A stretch of DNA of 64,000 nucleotides. Source: a bacterium. GTDB taxonomy: Bacteria > Hinthialibacterota > Hinthialibacteria > Hinthialibacterales > Hinthialibacteraceae. The notes below the pieces were generated by a model. The model was not told the DNA's origin. It saw only the letters and a list, made by a program, of their open reading frames with translations, and ran no database searches. Positions 18,761 to 23,470 of this stretch are shown here, piece after piece. Within the stretch, counting starts at the first letter, position 1, and each line of letters begins with the position of its first letter. A program made the translations under genes and the position numbers. Location: assembly GCA_963663405.2 (NCBI GenBank), contig CAXXSM010000153.1, positions 1-64,000 on the forward strand. Reading direction: 5' to 3'.

Positions 18761-18899
18761 TTTTGTCTGAATCAGGATGGACAGGATTAAAGGATAGTCA
18801 GGATACTATTTATTGAGTTTGCGATCCGAAGATGAATACCACTTCGATGATTCTTATCCTGTCGATCCTGATAATCCTGGGTATCCTGATTCTGACAAA
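18761..18899. repeat. Palindromic repeat family B, copy 1 (tgtctgaatcaggat...atcctgattctgaca)
   Basis: Near-identical direct copy at 21981-22135; half copies at 44574-44617 and about 18636-18680; 9-nt periodic aggat/atcct units. Confidence 0.85.
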
Positions 18900-18916
18900 G
18901 AAAGACAGGAAACACT

Positions 18917-19387
18917 TCAAGCCAACCTGCAATATTGTGAGGCATGATATCTTGCTTTTAGAAATGTCACATCATCATTCACCCAACCTAACCGATCACA
19001 ATACCTGACAACCACTCCTGACTTTTTGATTAGACATCGAACAAACTCACGCGCATCAATGTTTGTTGAATATCCACGCTTTTCTATCTCTACCAATCTC
19101 TCAATACAAATAGCTTCCCATATTTCATCTGTTCTGCAATTAATTCTCAATTGAAAAGGTCCATCCATGAACATCATATCAATTGTTTTTGAATTCTCGT
19201 CTATTGCAATTAATAAATCATTTAACCACCATCCTAATAAACGAACTGGAAAGTCATACCATTGTTCAGATGGAAAATAATAACCAAATAGATTAAATGA
19301 AATGACGCCTACAATAAGATTAAAGCTTGTGAGTTCAAAACTTTTTGTATCTACATTGATAAGATCGTTCTTCTCTGATTTGGTCAA
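18917..19387 (-). CDS. Hypothetical protein, possibly a polymorphic-toxin immunity protein
   Basis: 156 aa, low GC; FPxxxWxDFxxxxLGWW...FMDGP pattern; AAGGAGG RBS. The function is inferred. Confidence 0.6.
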   Translation of the reverse strand: MTKSEKNDLINVDTKSFELTSFNLIVGVISFNLFGYYFPSEQWYDFPVRLLGWWLNDLLIAIDENSKTIDMMFMDGPFQLRINCRTDEIWEAICIERLVEIEKRGYSTNIDAREFVRCLIKKSGVVVRYCDRLGWVNDDVTFLKARYHASQYCRLA

Positions 19388-19448: not shown

Positions 19449-20162
19449 CTACTCGATTACCATCTCATGTTGATTTCTAATAAAACAATTGGTTTTGTCT
19501 TGTATTAGCGTGACGCCAGCAGCACGTAGAAAAGCAATGAGTGACAAACCTAATCTTTCCGTTTTTTTCTTTCGTGTCGAAGGACCGACCATATAGATCT
19601 CCTGATCCGGTTTATGACTATTCCACTTTCGTCTTTTCTCACTCTCAACCGGATCGTCATGATCAAACCATAAGAAGACATGCCAGTCATTCATATCCCT
19701 ACCTGCCATGTCTGTGGCTTGTCCTGTATTCCACTCTATGGATTCGATCTTTTCAAGTGGAATACTTTGCTGGTAAAATCGATGACCAAACAATTTATAC
19801 CCAAAACGAATTTCTTTCCGTTGTCCATCTTGTACGGGAATCTCGGCAAAATATTGCCCAATCAGCTCTCCCAAGCGGTTGGCGATAAATATAAAAAGTC
19901 CTCCTTGTTCGATACACGCTTTCCATATTAAAAAAGTGGTTAAAGCAAGGCCAATGAATGATGGAATCAGAGCGATTCCATTTAAAATATTCTCAATGGC
20001 AAATTTGACAGTCGCGATAACAATACATGTAACGATGAAATAGAAGTTAGTTTCCCCATTTGACTTTGGAATCTTCATTTCTTGTTTTACTGCAGTTTCC
20101 GTTGTCATTTTCCTTCCTGAATCCATGTACAGTTCTATGTTATACATTTCTTTTTCGAGCAT
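19449..20162 (-). CDS. Hypothetical membrane protein
   Basis: Two TM helices followed by a soluble domain; low GC. Confidence 0.7.
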   Translation of the reverse strand: MLEKEMYNIELYMDSGRKMTTETAVKQEMKIPKSNGETNFYFIVTCIVIATVKFAIENILNGIALIPSFIGLALTTFLIWKACIEQGGLFIFIANRLGELIGQYFAEIPVQDGQRKEIRFGYKLFGHRFYQQSIPLEKIESIEWNTGQATDMAGRDMNDWHVFLWFDHDDPVESEKRRKWNSHKPDQEIYMVGPSTRKKKTERLGLSLIAFLRAAGVTLIQDKTNCFIRNQHEMVIE

Positions 20163-20272
20163 GGATGTTTACTGCTTAGATTTGTAGATACCATGTTGAA
20201 GGCTGGTTCCGAGTGAGAGGGAGGTATACTCTCTCTCACTCAGGAAAAAAAGAAAAAGAAAGGAACCAGCTA

Positions 20273-21343
20273 ATGAGAGTATACATCGGAATTGACGCGG
20301 GATGGGAGAGCATGCGGTACGAAGTGAGAAATGCGAAGCAAGAGAGAATCGAACGGGGCGGGATCGCGGCGACACCCGAGGCGTTGGAACACTTCTTAAA
20401 GAAGTACGAGCCAGTGAAGGAGGTCCAAGTGGCGTTCGAATCGGGGACGCAAATGTATTGGATGGATGCGGTCGTGAAGAAAATGGGAATGGACAGTTAT
20501 CCCTTTCATGCGGCGCACTTTTTCACCCTAGTGAAATCGAAGAACAAGACGGATAAAAAAGATGCGGAGCGGATCGCGGTGGAGGCGGCGAAACAGGGGC
20601 TGCCCGAACGGATCGTGATTCCAGAGGAGGATGAGAAACGATTGCGCGATCTCTTGAGCGAACGGGAGGCGTATAAGAAGACATTGACGGCGCAAGTCAA
20701 CCGCCTGCATGCGCTGACCGTCTCGGAAGGCCTGCTCATCAAGAAAGGCCGGTTGACGGTAGACGCCGCCAGTTGGGAGCGGGTGATCGGCCAACTGACG
20801 GGCGGCGCGAAAGCCGAAGCGAAACGGATGTACGCAATCGCTTTGAGCCTCATGCAGGCGCTCGAAGAACTCGAAGAGGCCATTCGTCACGAACTGGCGC
20901 AAGACGAATGGCGGCCCGCATTTGCCCGCTTAACGAGTGTGCCGGGAATCGGTTTTTGGAGCGCGGCGGTTCTTCTGGCCTGGTGTGGTCCCACGGCGGC
21001 GCGGTTTTCCTCGGGCCGGAAAGCGGCCTCTTATTTCGGTCTAGTCGGACTGACACGCCAAAGCGGGAAGCAAAACCGGTGGGGTCACATCACGAAAGCG
21101 GGTCCATCAATCCCCCGGCGGATTCTCGTCCAGGCGGCGCATGCGTTTTTACGACACCACCGGGCGAAAACGAGCCGCTGGGGCGTCTGGTACGACCAAT
21201 TGACTCAAGGCGGGAAGCGGAGGAAAAAGATCGCCATCATCGGATTGACCCGGAAACTCGTCACCGCGGCCGTCGCGTGTTTGCGGAACGAAACCCACTG
21301 GGACAGTACCCGCCTAGCCCTGGCCCCGGAGAGAACGTCGTAA
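20273..21343 (+). CDS. IS110-family DEDD/Ser recombinase (transposase)
   Basis: YIGID, AFESG and KTDKKDA (DEDD); SVPGIG, FSSGRKAASYFGL, RQSG (catalytic Ser) and GHITKAG. Confidence 0.95.
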   Translation: MRVYIGIDAGWESMRYEVRNAKQERIERGGIAATPEALEHFLKKYEPVKEVQVAFESGTQMYWMDAVVKKMGMDSYPFHAAHFFTLVKSKNKTDKKDAERIAVEAAKQGLPERIVIPEEDEKRLRDLLSEREAYKKTLTAQVNRLHALTVSEGLLIKKGRLTVDAASWERVIGQLTGGAKAEAKRMYAIALSLMQALEELEEAIRHELAQDEWRPAFARLTSVPGIGFWSAAVLLAWCGPTAARFSSGRKAASYFGLVGLTRQSGKQNRWGHITKAGPSIPRRILVQAAHAFLRHHRAKTSRWGVWYDQLTQGGKRRKKIAIIGLTRKLVTAAVACLRNETHWDSTRLALAPERTS

Positions 21344-21469
21344 AGGCGGAGGCGCGCCTCGGACTGAGCGCCCGTTTTTGAGAATCCAGACCAGAAGAAG
21401 AAAGAGAAAAAAAGAAGAAGGAAAAGGAGTTTTTCTCCAAGGCGAAAAAACGCCCCTACATTCAAAGCG

Positions 21470-21610
21470 GCCATGTTCGCAGTTCCCAAAACTCGTGCCC
21501 ACCCTTGTGATGCAAGGAATCCGTCCTCGTAGATTGAGTTGGGAACTCGCACCGATCTCTTGGCTCTGCGGTGAAGCAGAGAAACCGAATAAAAGGCTGA
21601 ACGAACCTCG
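21470..21610 (+). ncRNA. Putative bridge/seekRNA with target- and donor-binding loops (boundaries approximate)
   Basis: Stem agttccc/gggaact encloses GCCCACCCT (21497-21505) and TCGTAG (21527-21532), which match the REP target. ATAAAAG (21589-21595) matches the donor junction. Confidence 0.75.
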
Positions 21611-21980
21611 CAGCGAATGAGGGCGAACTCCGGCGGAGGAGAAAAGACGAACGAGCGAAAAAGCCACTGGGGAGGAATCCCGGCATGTGGATTCTGCCAT
21701 CTTGTGGACAAACCATGAAAGTGGATCCCATCCGGAAAGCCGGTCGAGGTTTGACCACAAGATTTGGACAGCCGCCTATGAGAGAGGATCCAAACAGAGG
21801 AAGCATCTCACAGGCGCCTGACCACAGACTCCACAAGCATAATGCGGATACGAATATGTAAATTGAAAATTAAAGACCTGCTGTGCTGACGCACAGTAAA
21901 AAAAAATAACGAAAAGTCGGTTGTCCTATTGACAGCCTTCAACATAAAAGGGTGGGCTAAAAGCAAAGCGCAGGACGCCA

Positions 21981-22135
21981 TTTTTGTCTGAATCAGGATG
22001 GACAAGATTAAAGGATAGCCAGGATTTTATCCCTTATTAATAGAGTTTGCGATCCGAAGATGAATACCACTTCGATGATTCTTATCCTGTTGATCCTGAT
22101 AATCCTGGATATCCTGATTCTGACAGAGAAAGACT
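21981..22135. repeat. Palindromic repeat family B, copy 2
   Basis: Direct repeat of 18761-18899. Confidence 0.85.
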
Positions 22136-22335
22136 GCATTTGACAGATAGGATTTCCATGTTTATTCTATTATCAGAAGCCTGTCATTTTTAATATGTTT
22201 GTATTTGGTGGGCTACGCTTCGCTTTTAGCCCACCCTACCTACTACCTACTTAGCCCACCCTACCCGGCTAAAATATTTTGGGTGCGTTTGGCCGCCAGC
22301 CTCTAATTGAAACATACAAAGAGCGCACCCCATTT

Positions 22336-22725: not shown

Positions 22726-22958
22726 AATAATTTTTCCACCTTTTAGATTTGTAGGGCTAAGAGCAAAGCGTAGCCTACCATTTATTTTACATACATTTAC
22801 ATTTGACATAAAGGAACACCATGTATATTCTATAACCAAATACATGACATTTTTGATACTTTTGTACTCGGTGGGCTACGCTTCGCTCTTAGCCCACCCT
22901 ACTCTATAATGAAGACTATCACGATTTCTAGCGTAAGTCCTTTTAAAGGAAGAATAAC

Positions 22959-23213
22959 ATGAAAGCCGTTACCTATGCAGAGGCGAAAAAGAATTTGAAG
23001 GCGCTGATTCATCAGGTTTGCGAAGACTCGGAACCGGCTGTGATTGTCAGCAGCCAAACCCAAGAGCAAGCCGTGCTCATCTCGAAAGAAGATTATCAGG
23101 CCCTGGAGGAAACAGCCTATCTGCTCAGCGTTCCCGCGAACCGCGCGCACTTGGAACGATCGTTACAAGAAGCGGCTGAAGGCAAAGTCGTTGATTTTCC
23201 CTCCGATGAATGA
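22959..23213 (+). CDS. yefM: Phd/YefM antitoxin
   Basis: TYAEAKKNLKALI...AVLISKEDYQALEETAYLLSVPAN. Confidence 0.95.
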   Translation: MKAVTYAEAKKNLKALIHQVCEDSEPAVIVSSQTQEQAVLISKEDYQALEETAYLLSVPANRAHLERSLQEAAEGKVVDFPSDE

Positions 23214-23470
23214 TGAAGATTCAATTCACCGAAGGAGCCTGGAAAGATTTTGAATGGTTTCTGGATAATGACAAGCGTATTGTCAAGCGCATTCGGGAAC
23301 TCCTAAAAGATATCTGCCGCCATCCCGAAGAGGGTATCGGCAAACCTGAGCGGTTATCTTTCCAACTATCGGGATACTGGTCCCGCCGCATCACGAAAGA
23401 ACACCGGCTGATCTATAAAGCCGATAAAGACGTGGTGATCGTGATCAGTTGCCGCTTCCACTACGAATAG
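23210..23470 (+). CDS. yoeB: Txe/YoeB toxin
   Basis: GIGKPERL...SGYWSRRITKEHRLIY...SCRFHY. Confidence 0.95.
   Translation: MMKIQFTEGAWKDFEWFLDNDKRIVKRIRELLKDICRHPEEGIGKPERLSFQLSGYWSRRITKEHRLIYKADKDVVIVISCRFHYE

What the first reader, a model, noticed from the sequence alone, without database searches (positions are those of the whole stretch)
20186..21948. IS1111 bridge recombinase whose RNA guides can be read directly and match the host REP
Seen: removing the element restores GTAG|GGTGGGCTAA, which reads GCCCACC-CT-AC on the other strand. In the 3' non-coding region, a stem (agttccc..aactc / gagtt..gggaact) with an inner ccttg/caagg hairpin displays GCCCACCCT and (TC)GTAG, the left and right target guides around a CT core. 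A second hairpin (ctctgc/gcagag) is followed by ATAAAAG, matching the donor junction; the left donor guide is only partly evident (ATCT at 21555-21558). Empty targets lie at 22229, 22254 and 22892. Known: IS110/IS1111 elements use bridge or seekRNAs, and some target REPs. This is a new, apparently intact programmable recombinase candidate with about 590 nt of non-coding sequence.
Basis: partly seen in the sequence, partly recalled or inferred. Interest (0 to 1): 0.8.

Follow-up and report, generated by a model that had tools for sequence, protein, structure and literature searches.

The report
REP-targeting IS1111-type bridge-RNA insertion sequence
This is an apparently intact jumping gene of the known IS110/IS1111 kind whose own small RNA spells out the host repeat it inserts into; it is a new example of a known mechanism and carries an unexplained structured passenger.

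Summary
Window 20186-21948 is a 1,763-bp IS110-family element of the IS1111 type. It has a DEDD/Ser recombinase of 356 aa, 13-bp subterminal inverted repeats and a 605-nt non-coding region (NCR) downstream of the gene. It sits at GCCCACC|CT|AC, on the 3' edge of a REP hairpin; the genome holds 41 further copies of this 11-mer (2.9 expected).

The NCR carries a roughly 120-nt two-loop bridge/seekRNA at 21481-21599. Its 9-nt left target guide, GCCCACCCT, is matched by 3 of 2,000 shuffles. The only close relative I could fetch (L106, recombinase 53% identical) has ACCCATCCT at the same position, and this matches its own, different REP target. Both differences in the guide are mirrored in the target. 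8 of 29 stem pairs carry compensatory changes. The 7-nt right donor guide, ATAAAAG, is conserved. The right target guide (GTAG) and left donor guide (ATCT) are only 4 nt each and are not significant on their own.

A second sample holds a 94% identical copy at another locus with the same borders. The element is a new member of a known kind.

About 160 nt of the NCR (21682-21843) is not guide. It is a very stable three-way-junction module that also occurs in ISL3-type elements and behind IS21-type genes. Its function is unknown.

The parts
20184..20187 (-). Left flank GTAG. On the minus strand this is the CT core plus right target AC. 20186-20187 is the left copy of the core.
   Evidence: In the genome, TTAGCCCACC is followed by CTAC in 37 of 45 cases. 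Three remnants in relatives (G001, G009, G020) and L106 are also flanked by GTAG; a fourth, more diverged remnant in G006 is not.
20188..20272 (+). Left end and 5' UTR. It holds the subterminal inverted repeat ATGTTGAAGGCTG (20193-20205) and TACCAT (20189-20194), a candidate -10 of a circle-junction promoter. GGCUGGUUCC pairs with the SD-containing GGAACCAGC.
   Evidence: The pairing is kept in L106 with changed letters (GGCUGACUC/GGAGUCAGCC).
20273..21343 (+). Recombinase gene, 356 aa: DEDD RuvC-like domain plus Tnp domain with the SG serine.
   Evidence: Pfam, NCBIfam. PDB: ISCro4 at 3e-12 and IS621 at 3e-11. Residues D8, E56, D94, D97 and S264.
21351..21379 (+). Terminator-like hairpin GGCGC..GCGCC followed by T5, just behind the stop codon.
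   Evidence: Read. The scan did not list it because the loop is longer than 8 nt. This is inference only.
21481..21547 (+). Bridge-RNA stem-loop 1, the target-binding loop. Outer stem 21481-21495 pairs with 21536-21547. LTG GCCCACCCT is at 21497-21505, the inner hairpin at 21503-21517, RTG GUAG at 21529-21532 and the handshake-like AU at 21533-21534.
   Evidence: L106 has ACCCATCCT, which matches its own target.
21548..21616 (+). Bridge-RNA stem-loop 2, the donor-binding loop. LDG AUCU is at 21555-21558, the hairpin at 21560-21588, RDG AUAAAAG at 21589-21595 and the handshake-like GCUG at 21596-21599, which also pairs with CAGC in a small 3' hairpin.
21682..21843 (+). Three-way-junction module shared with ISL3-type elements, found behind IS21-type genes, and also present in L106. 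It is not part of the guide RNA as far as can be told.
21929..21950 (+). Right end. TTGACA (21929-21934) is a candidate -35. The subterminal inverted repeat CAGCCTTCAACAT is at 21933-21945. The right donor plus core, ATAAAAG, is at 21944-21950, with the core copy at 21949-21950.
   Evidence: Across the circle junction the sequence reads TTGACA, 17 nt, TACCAT. In L106 it reads TTGACA, 17 nt, TACTAT.
21951..21979 (-). The rest of the occupied REP copy. The left target GCCCACC corresponds to 21951-21957 on the minus strand. The other hairpin arm is degenerate.
22229..22239 (+). Unoccupied target GCCCACCCTAC at the edge of a REP hairpin.
22254..22264 (+). Unoccupied target GCCCACCCTAC.
22892..22902 (+). 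Unoccupied target GCCCACCCTAC at the edge of a REP hairpin.

Best explanation
This is an IS110-family insertion sequence of the IS1111 type that chooses its insertion site with an RNA encoded in its own 3' non-coding region.

Shown here:
- It encodes an intact DEDD/Ser recombinase.
- It has 13-bp subterminal inverted repeats.
- It is inserted without duplication other than the shared core dinucleotide (CT on the minus strand) at GCCCACC|CT|AC on the edge of a host REP hairpin.
- About 140 nt behind the gene lie two stem-loops. The first displays GCCCACCCU (left target plus core) on its 5' side and GUAG (complement of core plus right target AC), followed by AU, on its 3' side. The second displays AUCU on its 5' side and AUAAAAG (complement of core plus right donor) on its 3' side.

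Inferred from IS621 and the IS1111 seekRNAs:
- The element excises as a circle. The joined ends would create a TTGACA-17-TACCAT promoter.
- A recombinase tetramer holds the RNA. The first loop pairs with both strands of the REP target and the second with the circle junction.
- The catalytic serine cuts beside CT and the strands are exchanged. The nucleotides just 3' of RTG and RDG (AU; G.UG) would pair with the incoming partner strand, as handshake guides do.
- The left donor side is matched by only 4 nt, so it may be recognised mainly through the long subterminal repeats.
For: Protein family and catalytic residues.

Borders: the restored site equals the REP consensus. TTAGCCCACC is followed by CTAC in 37 of 45 genomic cases, and the 11-mer occurs 41 times against 2.9 expected. 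A contig of another study aligns to the left flank and stops exactly at 20187. A 1,878-nt contig of that study carries a 94% identical element aligned over 20184-21964, with unrelated sequence beyond.

Guides: a 9-nt LTG match was reached in 3 of 2,000 shuffles here and 6 of 2,000 in L106. The RDG was reached in 136 and 58 of 2,000. These are the only target or donor matches of 6 nt or more that lie at homologous positions in both elements.

Covariation: the guide reads GCCCACCCT here and ACCCATCCT in L106. The targets read AGGGTGGGC and AGGATGGGT.

Structure: 29 consensus pairs, 8 of them with both sides changed.

Guide order: the guide complementary to the top strand lies 5' of the other one, as reported for IS1111 seekRNAs (PMC11187229, section read). 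LTG/RTG and HSG definitions come from PMC11208160 and PMC11208158 (passages).
Against: - There is only one copy in an 8.4-Mb assembly (82% complete), although 41 perfect empty targets exist.
- Only one independent relative carrying an NCR could be fetched, so the covariation rests on two sequences.
- RTG and LDG are 4 nt each and not significant.
- The handshake-like GCUG/GAUG also sits in a local hairpin that has a compensatory change of its own, so its match to the target may be secondary.
- No Rfam family matched.
- No sigma-70-like promoter for the RNA was found.
- There are no expression data.
- The fold energy of the RNA region is only modestly below shuffles (z -1.64; 11 of 200 shuffles fold at least as well).
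- The L106 recombinase lacks about 5 residues in the conserved PGIG..AWCG stretch, so that copy may be defective.
Confidence: 0.87

Rival explanations
1. The element is a real IS1111-type IS with a bridge RNA, but this copy is an inactive relic or a very recent, silent arrival. It would then not be a working programmable recombinase.
For: It is a single copy despite 41 empty perfect targets. Four relatives' genomes hold only truncated left-end remnants of 67-153 nt. The element's GC is 54.7% against 46.9% for the genome.
Against: The reading frame is open and the catalytic residues are kept. Both ends, the subterminal repeats and the junction promoter motif are intact. The guide fits the host REP perfectly. 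A 94% identical copy sits at another locus in a second sample.
Confidence: 0.3
2. The 9-nt match is not a guide. It is a REP fragment that the element picked up, or a chance match, and site choice is made by the protein.
For: The element lives in REPs, so REP-like fragments inside it are conceivable. RTG and LDG are not significant.
Against: A relative with a different REP target has the correspondingly different 9-mer at the same place, in a stem-loop whose stems covary. The match stops exactly at the core. RNA-guided targeting is established for this family (PMC11187229, PMC11208160).
Confidence: 0.04
3. The whole 605-nt NCR, including 21682-21843, is one long guide or scaffold RNA needed for recombination.
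For: The module is also present in the L106 NCR, in the same order and orientation.
Against: The same module lies in ISL3-type elements and behind IS21-type genes, and stands alone in G008. In its conserved boxes our copy is 94-95% identical to the IS21 and ISL3 copies but only 80% to the L106 copy. It contains no match to target or donor shared by both elements.
Confidence: 0.08

Closest known systems
IS621 of E. coli (IS110 group) and its bridge RNA
   Same: It has a DEDD plus serine recombinase and a CT core. Its natural target is an 11-nt site on the edge of a REP with a 7+2+2 layout (ATCAGGC-CT-AC there, GCCCACC-CT-AC here). Two loops each pair with both strands, and dinucleotides 3' of RTG and RDG fit the partner DNA (PMC11208160, PMC11208158; passages read).
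   Different: The RNA lies 3' of the gene rather than 5'. The gene points against the CT-top-strand orientation. The subterminal repeats are 13 bp rather than 2-3 bp. The left donor guide is only 4 nt. Protein similarity is limited to the C-terminal domain at E 3e-11.
IS1111-family seekRNA elements (ISEc11, ISKpn4, ISPst6 and REP-targeting ISPa11)
   Same: The long NCR lies downstream of tnp, subterminal inverted repeats are present, and the short target-matching segments are in the same order, with the top-strand match 5' of the bottom-strand match (PMC11187229; sections 6, 9 and 13 read).
   Different: The best named relative found is ISLin1, at 29% identity. The host phylum and the REP differ. 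The GL-P----SG motif reads GLVGLTRQSG, without the proline. The NCR carries an extra shared module.
ISPpu9 / MITEPpu9 (ssr9) of Pseudomonas putida
   Same: It is an IS110-family element in REPs that recombines at an AG dinucleotide when read in gene orientation. A small structured-RNA module sits behind the transposase gene and also occurs elsewhere in the genome (PMC12288879; abstract and discussion read).
   Different: ssr9 is flanked by copies of the ISPpu9 end boxes and is moved by the ISPpu9 transposase. The module here has no such boxes, and it occurs in elements of other IS families.

Membership tests
IS110 family (RNA-guided DEDD recombinase elements) | [quoted passage not shown] | tested here: met
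   PF01548 at 5.3e-15 and PF02371 at 3.7e-16. NF033542 at 178.2 bits against a cut-off of 140.
IS110 family (RNA-guided DEDD recombinase elements) | Catalytic D, E, D, D and the serine of the SG motif | tested here: met
   D8, E56, D94, D97 and S264 are present. They are invariant or nearly so among 23 relatives. KTDxxDA and SG align with IS621 and ISCro4.
IS110 family (RNA-guided DEDD recombinase elements) | Site-specific insertion around a short core, with no other duplication | tested here: met
   One AG/CT core lies at each junction. The restored site equals the REP consensus. The same holds in L106.
IS110 family (RNA-guided DEDD recombinase elements) | Non-coding RNA with loops complementary to target and donor on both strands | tested here: inconclusive
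   LTG (9 nt) and RDG (7 nt) are met, with covariation and conservation. RTG and LDG are only 4 nt each and not significant.
IS110 family (RNA-guided DEDD recombinase elements) | The RNA is made and bound by the recombinase | not testable with these tools
   No RNA run was listed.
IS1111 group | Subterminal inverted repeats of 7-17 bp | tested here: met
   ATGTTGAAGGCTG at 20193-20205 and its complement at 21933-21945: 13 of 13 bp, set 5 nt in from each end. The same repeat is in L106.
IS1111 group | The longer non-coding region lies downstream of the recombinase gene | tested here: met
   605 nt downstream against 85 nt upstream.
IS1111 group | Recombinase related over its full length to that of IS1111; GL-P----S(T)G motif | tested here: inconclusive
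   No IS1111 reference sequence was at hand. The best named relative is ISLin1, 29% identical over residues 4-345; that ISLin1 belongs to the IS1111 group is recalled, not tested. The motif reads GLVGLTRQSG, with G in place of P.
IS1111 group | The top-strand-complementary segment lies 5' of the bottom-strand-complementary segment in the RNA | tested here: met
   GCCCACCCU (complementary to the + strand, i.e. the gene-sense strand) precedes GUAG. The criterion is from PMC11187229.
Right end of an IS21-family element (considered for the module 21682-21843) | Lies directly behind istB in every related copy and ends the element | tested here: not met
   It follows istB directly in G006 and G012. 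An istB pseudogene in G008, 69-71% identical to the G006 gene, has no module behind it. G008 copies stand alone.
Any Rfam family (bridge RNA region and module) | Match to a curated covariance model | tested here: not met
   No match at E <= 1 in window 20000-22300. In six related loci only tRNAs and chance hits were found.

The most novel reading that the evidence does not exclude
The 162-nt three-way-junction module in the NCR (21682-21843) may be an undescribed accessory element of insertion-sequence 3' ends. It is exchanged between IS1111-type, ISL3-type and IS21-type elements within one bacterial family. Its stems are kept almost letter for letter while its loops drift. It would act as an RNA or DNA structure that either serves the IS (3'-end protection, termination, regulation) or rides on it, as ssr9 rides on ISPpu9. 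A smaller second point: in this clade the left donor side is read by only 4 nt of RNA, so the subterminal repeats may take over donor recognition.
Probability: 0.3. Interest if true: 0.6.

Novelty: new member of a known kind. Interest (0 to 1): 0.33.

Why it matters
The element adds a compact IS1111-type bridge/seekRNA system from a small, poorly sampled phylum (35 species genomes held). The recombinase clade is rare: the best database relative is 72% identical and about twenty others are 48-53% identical.

Target, donor, core and handshake positions can all be read directly, and two natural guide-target pairs differ at two positions. That makes it a reasonable candidate for bench testing as a programmable recombinase, and a natural case for asking how IS1111-type elements recognise the donor when the left donor guide is so short.

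It does not change what is known about the mechanism. The shared three-way-junction module is the one part with no explanation.

Tried and rejected
Searches for more relatives carrying an NCR:
- The single-protein scan of genome contigs found none.
- The alignment scan of genome contigs gave 80 loci, all at 33% identity or less.
- Metagenome contigs gave only L106 and L107. L107 is the same insertion as L106, with the gene interrupted.
- Viral contigs gave 0 hits for two patterns and 19 loci at 29% or less.
- The 26 genomes of the order and the 35 of the phylum held no close relative.
- A covariance model of the bridge RNA (R2) found only its two training sequences in 100 sources. In the phylum it gave two weak hits that lie in coding sequence.

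Other negative or discarded results:
- Rfam: nothing.
- The promoter scan found 0 sites against 0.9 expected. A weak TTCTCC-18-TACATT seen by eye is not conserved in L106 and was dropped.
- A longer RTG or LDG, contiguous or shifted, was not found.
- One search used border coordinates that were two bases off. Its output is void and one search replaces it.
- Sequencing runs: no RNA holder was listed.
- In one search, the joints with sides of 22-26 letters (20205>20431, 21605>21815, 21836>21943, 21839>21928, 22009>22102) were set aside as repeat or foreign-organism artefacts, as the tool warns. The 'goes back 2185' joint is the repeat of 22043-22134 upstream of the window stretch. No contig was listed joining 20187 to 21951, so an empty site at this locus in X3 is not shown; all that is shown is that the flank alignment stops at 20187.

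Ideas for the module that were dropped:
- A protein-coding reading. The ORF at 21685-21861 spans it, but the boxes fall in different frames in other copies.
- A MITE with target duplication. None is visible in 7 copies.
- An obligatory IS21 right end. The left end of the G006 IS21-like element is not assembled.
- Strand of a putative RNA: G-U and A-C exceptions are about equal in number, so no call can be made.

Supplements are closed. Durrant et al.'s Supplementary Table 5 and Siddiquee et al.'s Supplementary Figs 6-7 may hold predicted RNAs of named relatives; I did not see them. I made no literature search for the module, so I make no claim about whether it is in print.
Full report
WHAT IS THERE

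The window carries one open reading frame of 356 aa at 20273-21343 (+). It has the two domains of IS110-family recombinases: PF01548 at 5.3e-15 and PF02371 at 3.7e-16. It scores 178.2 bits against NCBIfam NF033542, 'IS110 family RNA-guided transposase', whose cut-off is 140. Its C-terminal domain matches the solved ISCro4 and IS621 recombinases at 3e-12 and 3e-11, with the KTDxxDA and SG motifs aligned. D8, E56, D94, D97 and S264 are present. The four acidic residues (D8, E56, D94, D97) are invariant or nearly so among 23 relatives; the serine column is not listed as conserved there, only the adjacent G265.

The element is GC-richer than the genome, 54.7% against 46.9%.

BORDERS AND TARGET

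On the left the sequence reads ..GATTTGTAG|ATACCATGTTGAAGGCTGG. On the right it reads CAGCCTTCAACATAAAAG|GGTGGGCTAAAAGC.

A 13-bp subterminal inverted repeat, ATGTTGAAGGCTG, lies at 20193-20205 and 21933-21945, five bases in from each end.

Read on the minus strand, the restored site is TTAGCCCACC-CT-ACAAATC. The genome assembly (8.44 Mb, 170 contigs, 82% complete) holds 41 copies of GCCCACCCTAC where 2.9 are expected. 37 of them occur as TTAGCCCACCCTAC on the 3' edge of the hairpin GGTGGGCTA-N-TAGCCCACC. TTAGCCCACC is followed by CTAC in 37 of 45 cases. CTAC therefore belongs to the repeat, not to the element.

MOBILITY AND COPIES

The assembly has one copy only. A DNA search gave 1 full match plus 14 partial ones that belong to another element. 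tblastn gave one further, 28% identical relative on another contig.

No close relative was found in the 26 genomes of the order or the 35 of the phylum. Four genomes hold truncated left-end remnants. Three of them (G001, G009, G020) are 128-153 nt long and flanked on the left by GTAG. The fourth, in G006, matches only element positions 6-72 at 79%, is more diverged, and does not show that flank.

Laying public contigs on the stretch gave three results.
- Two runs of one sample carry the same insertion.
- A run of another study has an 8,890-nt contig that follows the left flank (12 differences over 19950-20187) and stops matching exactly at 20187.
- That same run has a separate 1,878-nt contig carrying a 94% identical element (107 differences). 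It aligns over 20184-21964, that is from GTAG to GGTGGGCTAAAAGC, with non-matching sequence beyond.

This is contig-level evidence for a second insertion at another locus with the same borders.

THE GUIDE RNA

I use the definitions of Durrant et al. (PMC11208160, passage read) and take the CT-bearing strand as top. The target is then GCCCACC-CT-AC and the donor (circle junction) is CATGGTAT-CT-TTTATGTTG.

The NCR contains, in order:
- GCCCACCCT, 21497-21505: left target plus core.
- GTAG, 21529-21532: complement of core plus AC.
- ATCT, 21555-21558: AT plus core of the left donor.
- ATAAAAG, 21589-21595: complement of core plus TTTAT.

In 2,000 dinucleotide shuffles of the NCR, matches at least as long arose 3, 979, 1,620 and 136 times respectively.

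The decisive comparison is L106, a 2,935-nt metagenome contig whose recombinase is 53% identical. Its element (1,705 bp) sits in ..TTTAGTAG|..|GATGGGTCGCGCCTTTCGACCCATC, a different REP-like hairpin. At the homologous NCR position it has ACCCATCCT, which equals its own left target plus core (6 of 2,000 shuffles). The two differences between the guides (G>A and C>T) are the two differences between the targets. GTAG, ATCT and ATAAAAG are unchanged, and so are the sequences they are meant to read. No other match of 6 nt or more to target or donor is shared by the two elements.

STRUCTURE

RNAalifold on the two sequences gives 29 pairs, 8 of them changed on both sides.
- The outer stem has 12 pairs: AGUUCCC..ACUC with GAGU..GGGAACU here, and AGCCCUC..ACUC with GAGU..GGGGGCU in L106. 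It encloses the target loop. Four of its pairs are double changes.
- The hairpin inside the donor loop has 10 pairs: CUCUGC/GCAGAG here, UUCCGAG/CUCGGAA in L106. Three of its pairs are double changes.

The single-sequence fold agrees, but its energy is only modestly below shuffles (z -1.64).

The bases just 3' of RTG (AU) fit donor positions 6-7 (AT). The bases 3' of RDG (GCUG here, GAUG in L106) fit target positions 7-4 at 3 of 4 and 4 of 4. This is the pattern of the handshake guides of IS621 (PMC11208158, passages read). The second stretch also pairs in a small local hairpin that has a compensatory change of its own, so I call it handshake-like and nothing stronger.

The guide complementary to the gene-sense strand comes first, as reported for IS1111 seekRNAs (PMC11187229, section 9).

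OTHER FEATURES OF AN INTACT ELEMENT

Across the circle junction, TTGACA (21929-21934), 17 nt and TACCAT (20189-20194) line up. L106 has TTGACA, 17 nt and TACTAT. Junction promoters are known in this family (PMC12288879, discussion read). Whether this one works is inference.

In the 5' UTR, GGCUGGUUCC pairs with the SD-containing GGAACCAGC. L106 keeps the pairing with other letters.

PART OF THE NCR IS SOMETHING ELSE

Positions 21682-21843 are 73% identical to a stretch present in 14 copies of a 1,984-bp ISL3-type element of the same genome. The same stretch follows istB of IS21-like elements in G006 and G012, stands alone in G008, and is also in the L106 NCR.

Seven copies align into three conserved boxes separated by variable loops. 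The consensus is a three-way junction of 38 pairs, 6 of them with double changes. Our copy folds at -69.3 kcal/mol, z -6.77, and 0 of 200 shuffles fold as well.

In the boxes our copy is 95% identical to the G012 (IS21) copy and 94% to the ISL3 copy, but only 80% to the L106 (IS1111) copy. The module therefore does not descend with its host element.

A covariance model finds strong matches in 5 of 35 genomes of the phylum, all in one family. Rfam has nothing. The module is not a conserved ORF. No target duplication is visible. An istB pseudogene in G008 related to the G006 gene lacks it, so it is not simply the IS21 right end. I leave it unexplained. The nearest analogy is ssr9/MITEPpu9 behind ISPpu9 (PMC12288879).

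COMPARISON AND VERDICT

The element works like IS621 and the IS1111 seekRNA elements, and it meets the tested criteria of the IS110 family and of the IS1111 layout. Full-length relatedness to IS1111 itself could not be tested. The best named relative is ISLin1, at 29%.

REP targeting, the CT/AG core, an 11-nt natural target and a 3' RNA are all described already (PMC11208160, PMC11187229, PMC12288879). The finding is thus a correct reading of a new member of a known kind. It has two natural guide-target pairs, an unusually short left donor guide and an unexplained shared module. Activity and expression remain untested.

Noticed in passing
window 21682-21843; G000 C18:83310-83472 and 13 other copies; L018 1501-1662; L020 1189-1352; L106 1458-1606; L021; L188: A 133-165-nt three-way-junction module with near-invariant stems and variable loops. 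It lies inside ISL3-type and IS1111-type elements, directly behind IS21-type istB genes, and standing alone. Similarity between copies does not follow the host IS family. Function unknown; no Rfam match.
   Followed up: yes
G000 C18:83104-85087 (minus strand) and 13 other contigs: A 1,984-bp ISL3-type element (433-aa transposase) in 14 copies, about 96-100% identical to one another. Its right part repeats the last ~100 nt of the transposase gene plus the inverted repeat, at about 75% identity by eye. The module lies between the inner and outer copies, as if a deletion derivative of a second ISL3 had fused to a full one.
   Followed up: partly
window 20188-20290; L106 17-125; L016, L017: The 5' UTR of the recombinase gene folds so that the sequence beside the left inverted repeat pairs with the ribosome-binding site. 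The pairing is kept with compensatory changes in L106. It may block translation of read-through transcripts.
   Followed up: partly
L016 1501-1648 (G001), L017 1501-1648 (G009), L019 1501-1631 (G020), L025 1501-1567 (G006): Solo left-end remnants of related elements (74-86% identical). Two are cut at nearly the same position, about 152 nt. No right end lies nearby. Three are flanked by GTAG.
   Followed up: partly
window 21981-22130, and 18832-19008 compared with 22060-22134: A second repeat family lies next to the occupied REP. TTTTTGTCTGAATCAGGATGGACAAG.. has about 39 copies in the genome and an inverted partner at 22111-22130. A short leucine/isoleucine-rich ORF-like stretch is repeated at 18832 and 22060.
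   Followed up: partly
window 22959-23467: A YefM-type antitoxin (PF02604, 1e-19) and a YoeB-type toxin (PF06769, 9e-34) form an overlapping gene pair just beyond a REP.
   Followed up: yes
L107 619-1155: In another metagenome sample the L106 insertion is present with the same left flank, but the recombinase gene is interrupted after residue 145 by unrelated sequence.
   Followed up: no
L030 3267-3411 (seven-copy IS110-family element in a Sedimentisphaerales MAG, L030-L036): A weak hit of the bridge-RNA model (E 0.74) lies directly behind the recombinase gene of a distant, 24% identical, multi-copy relative. It could serve as a further test case for guide-target reading.
   Followed up: no
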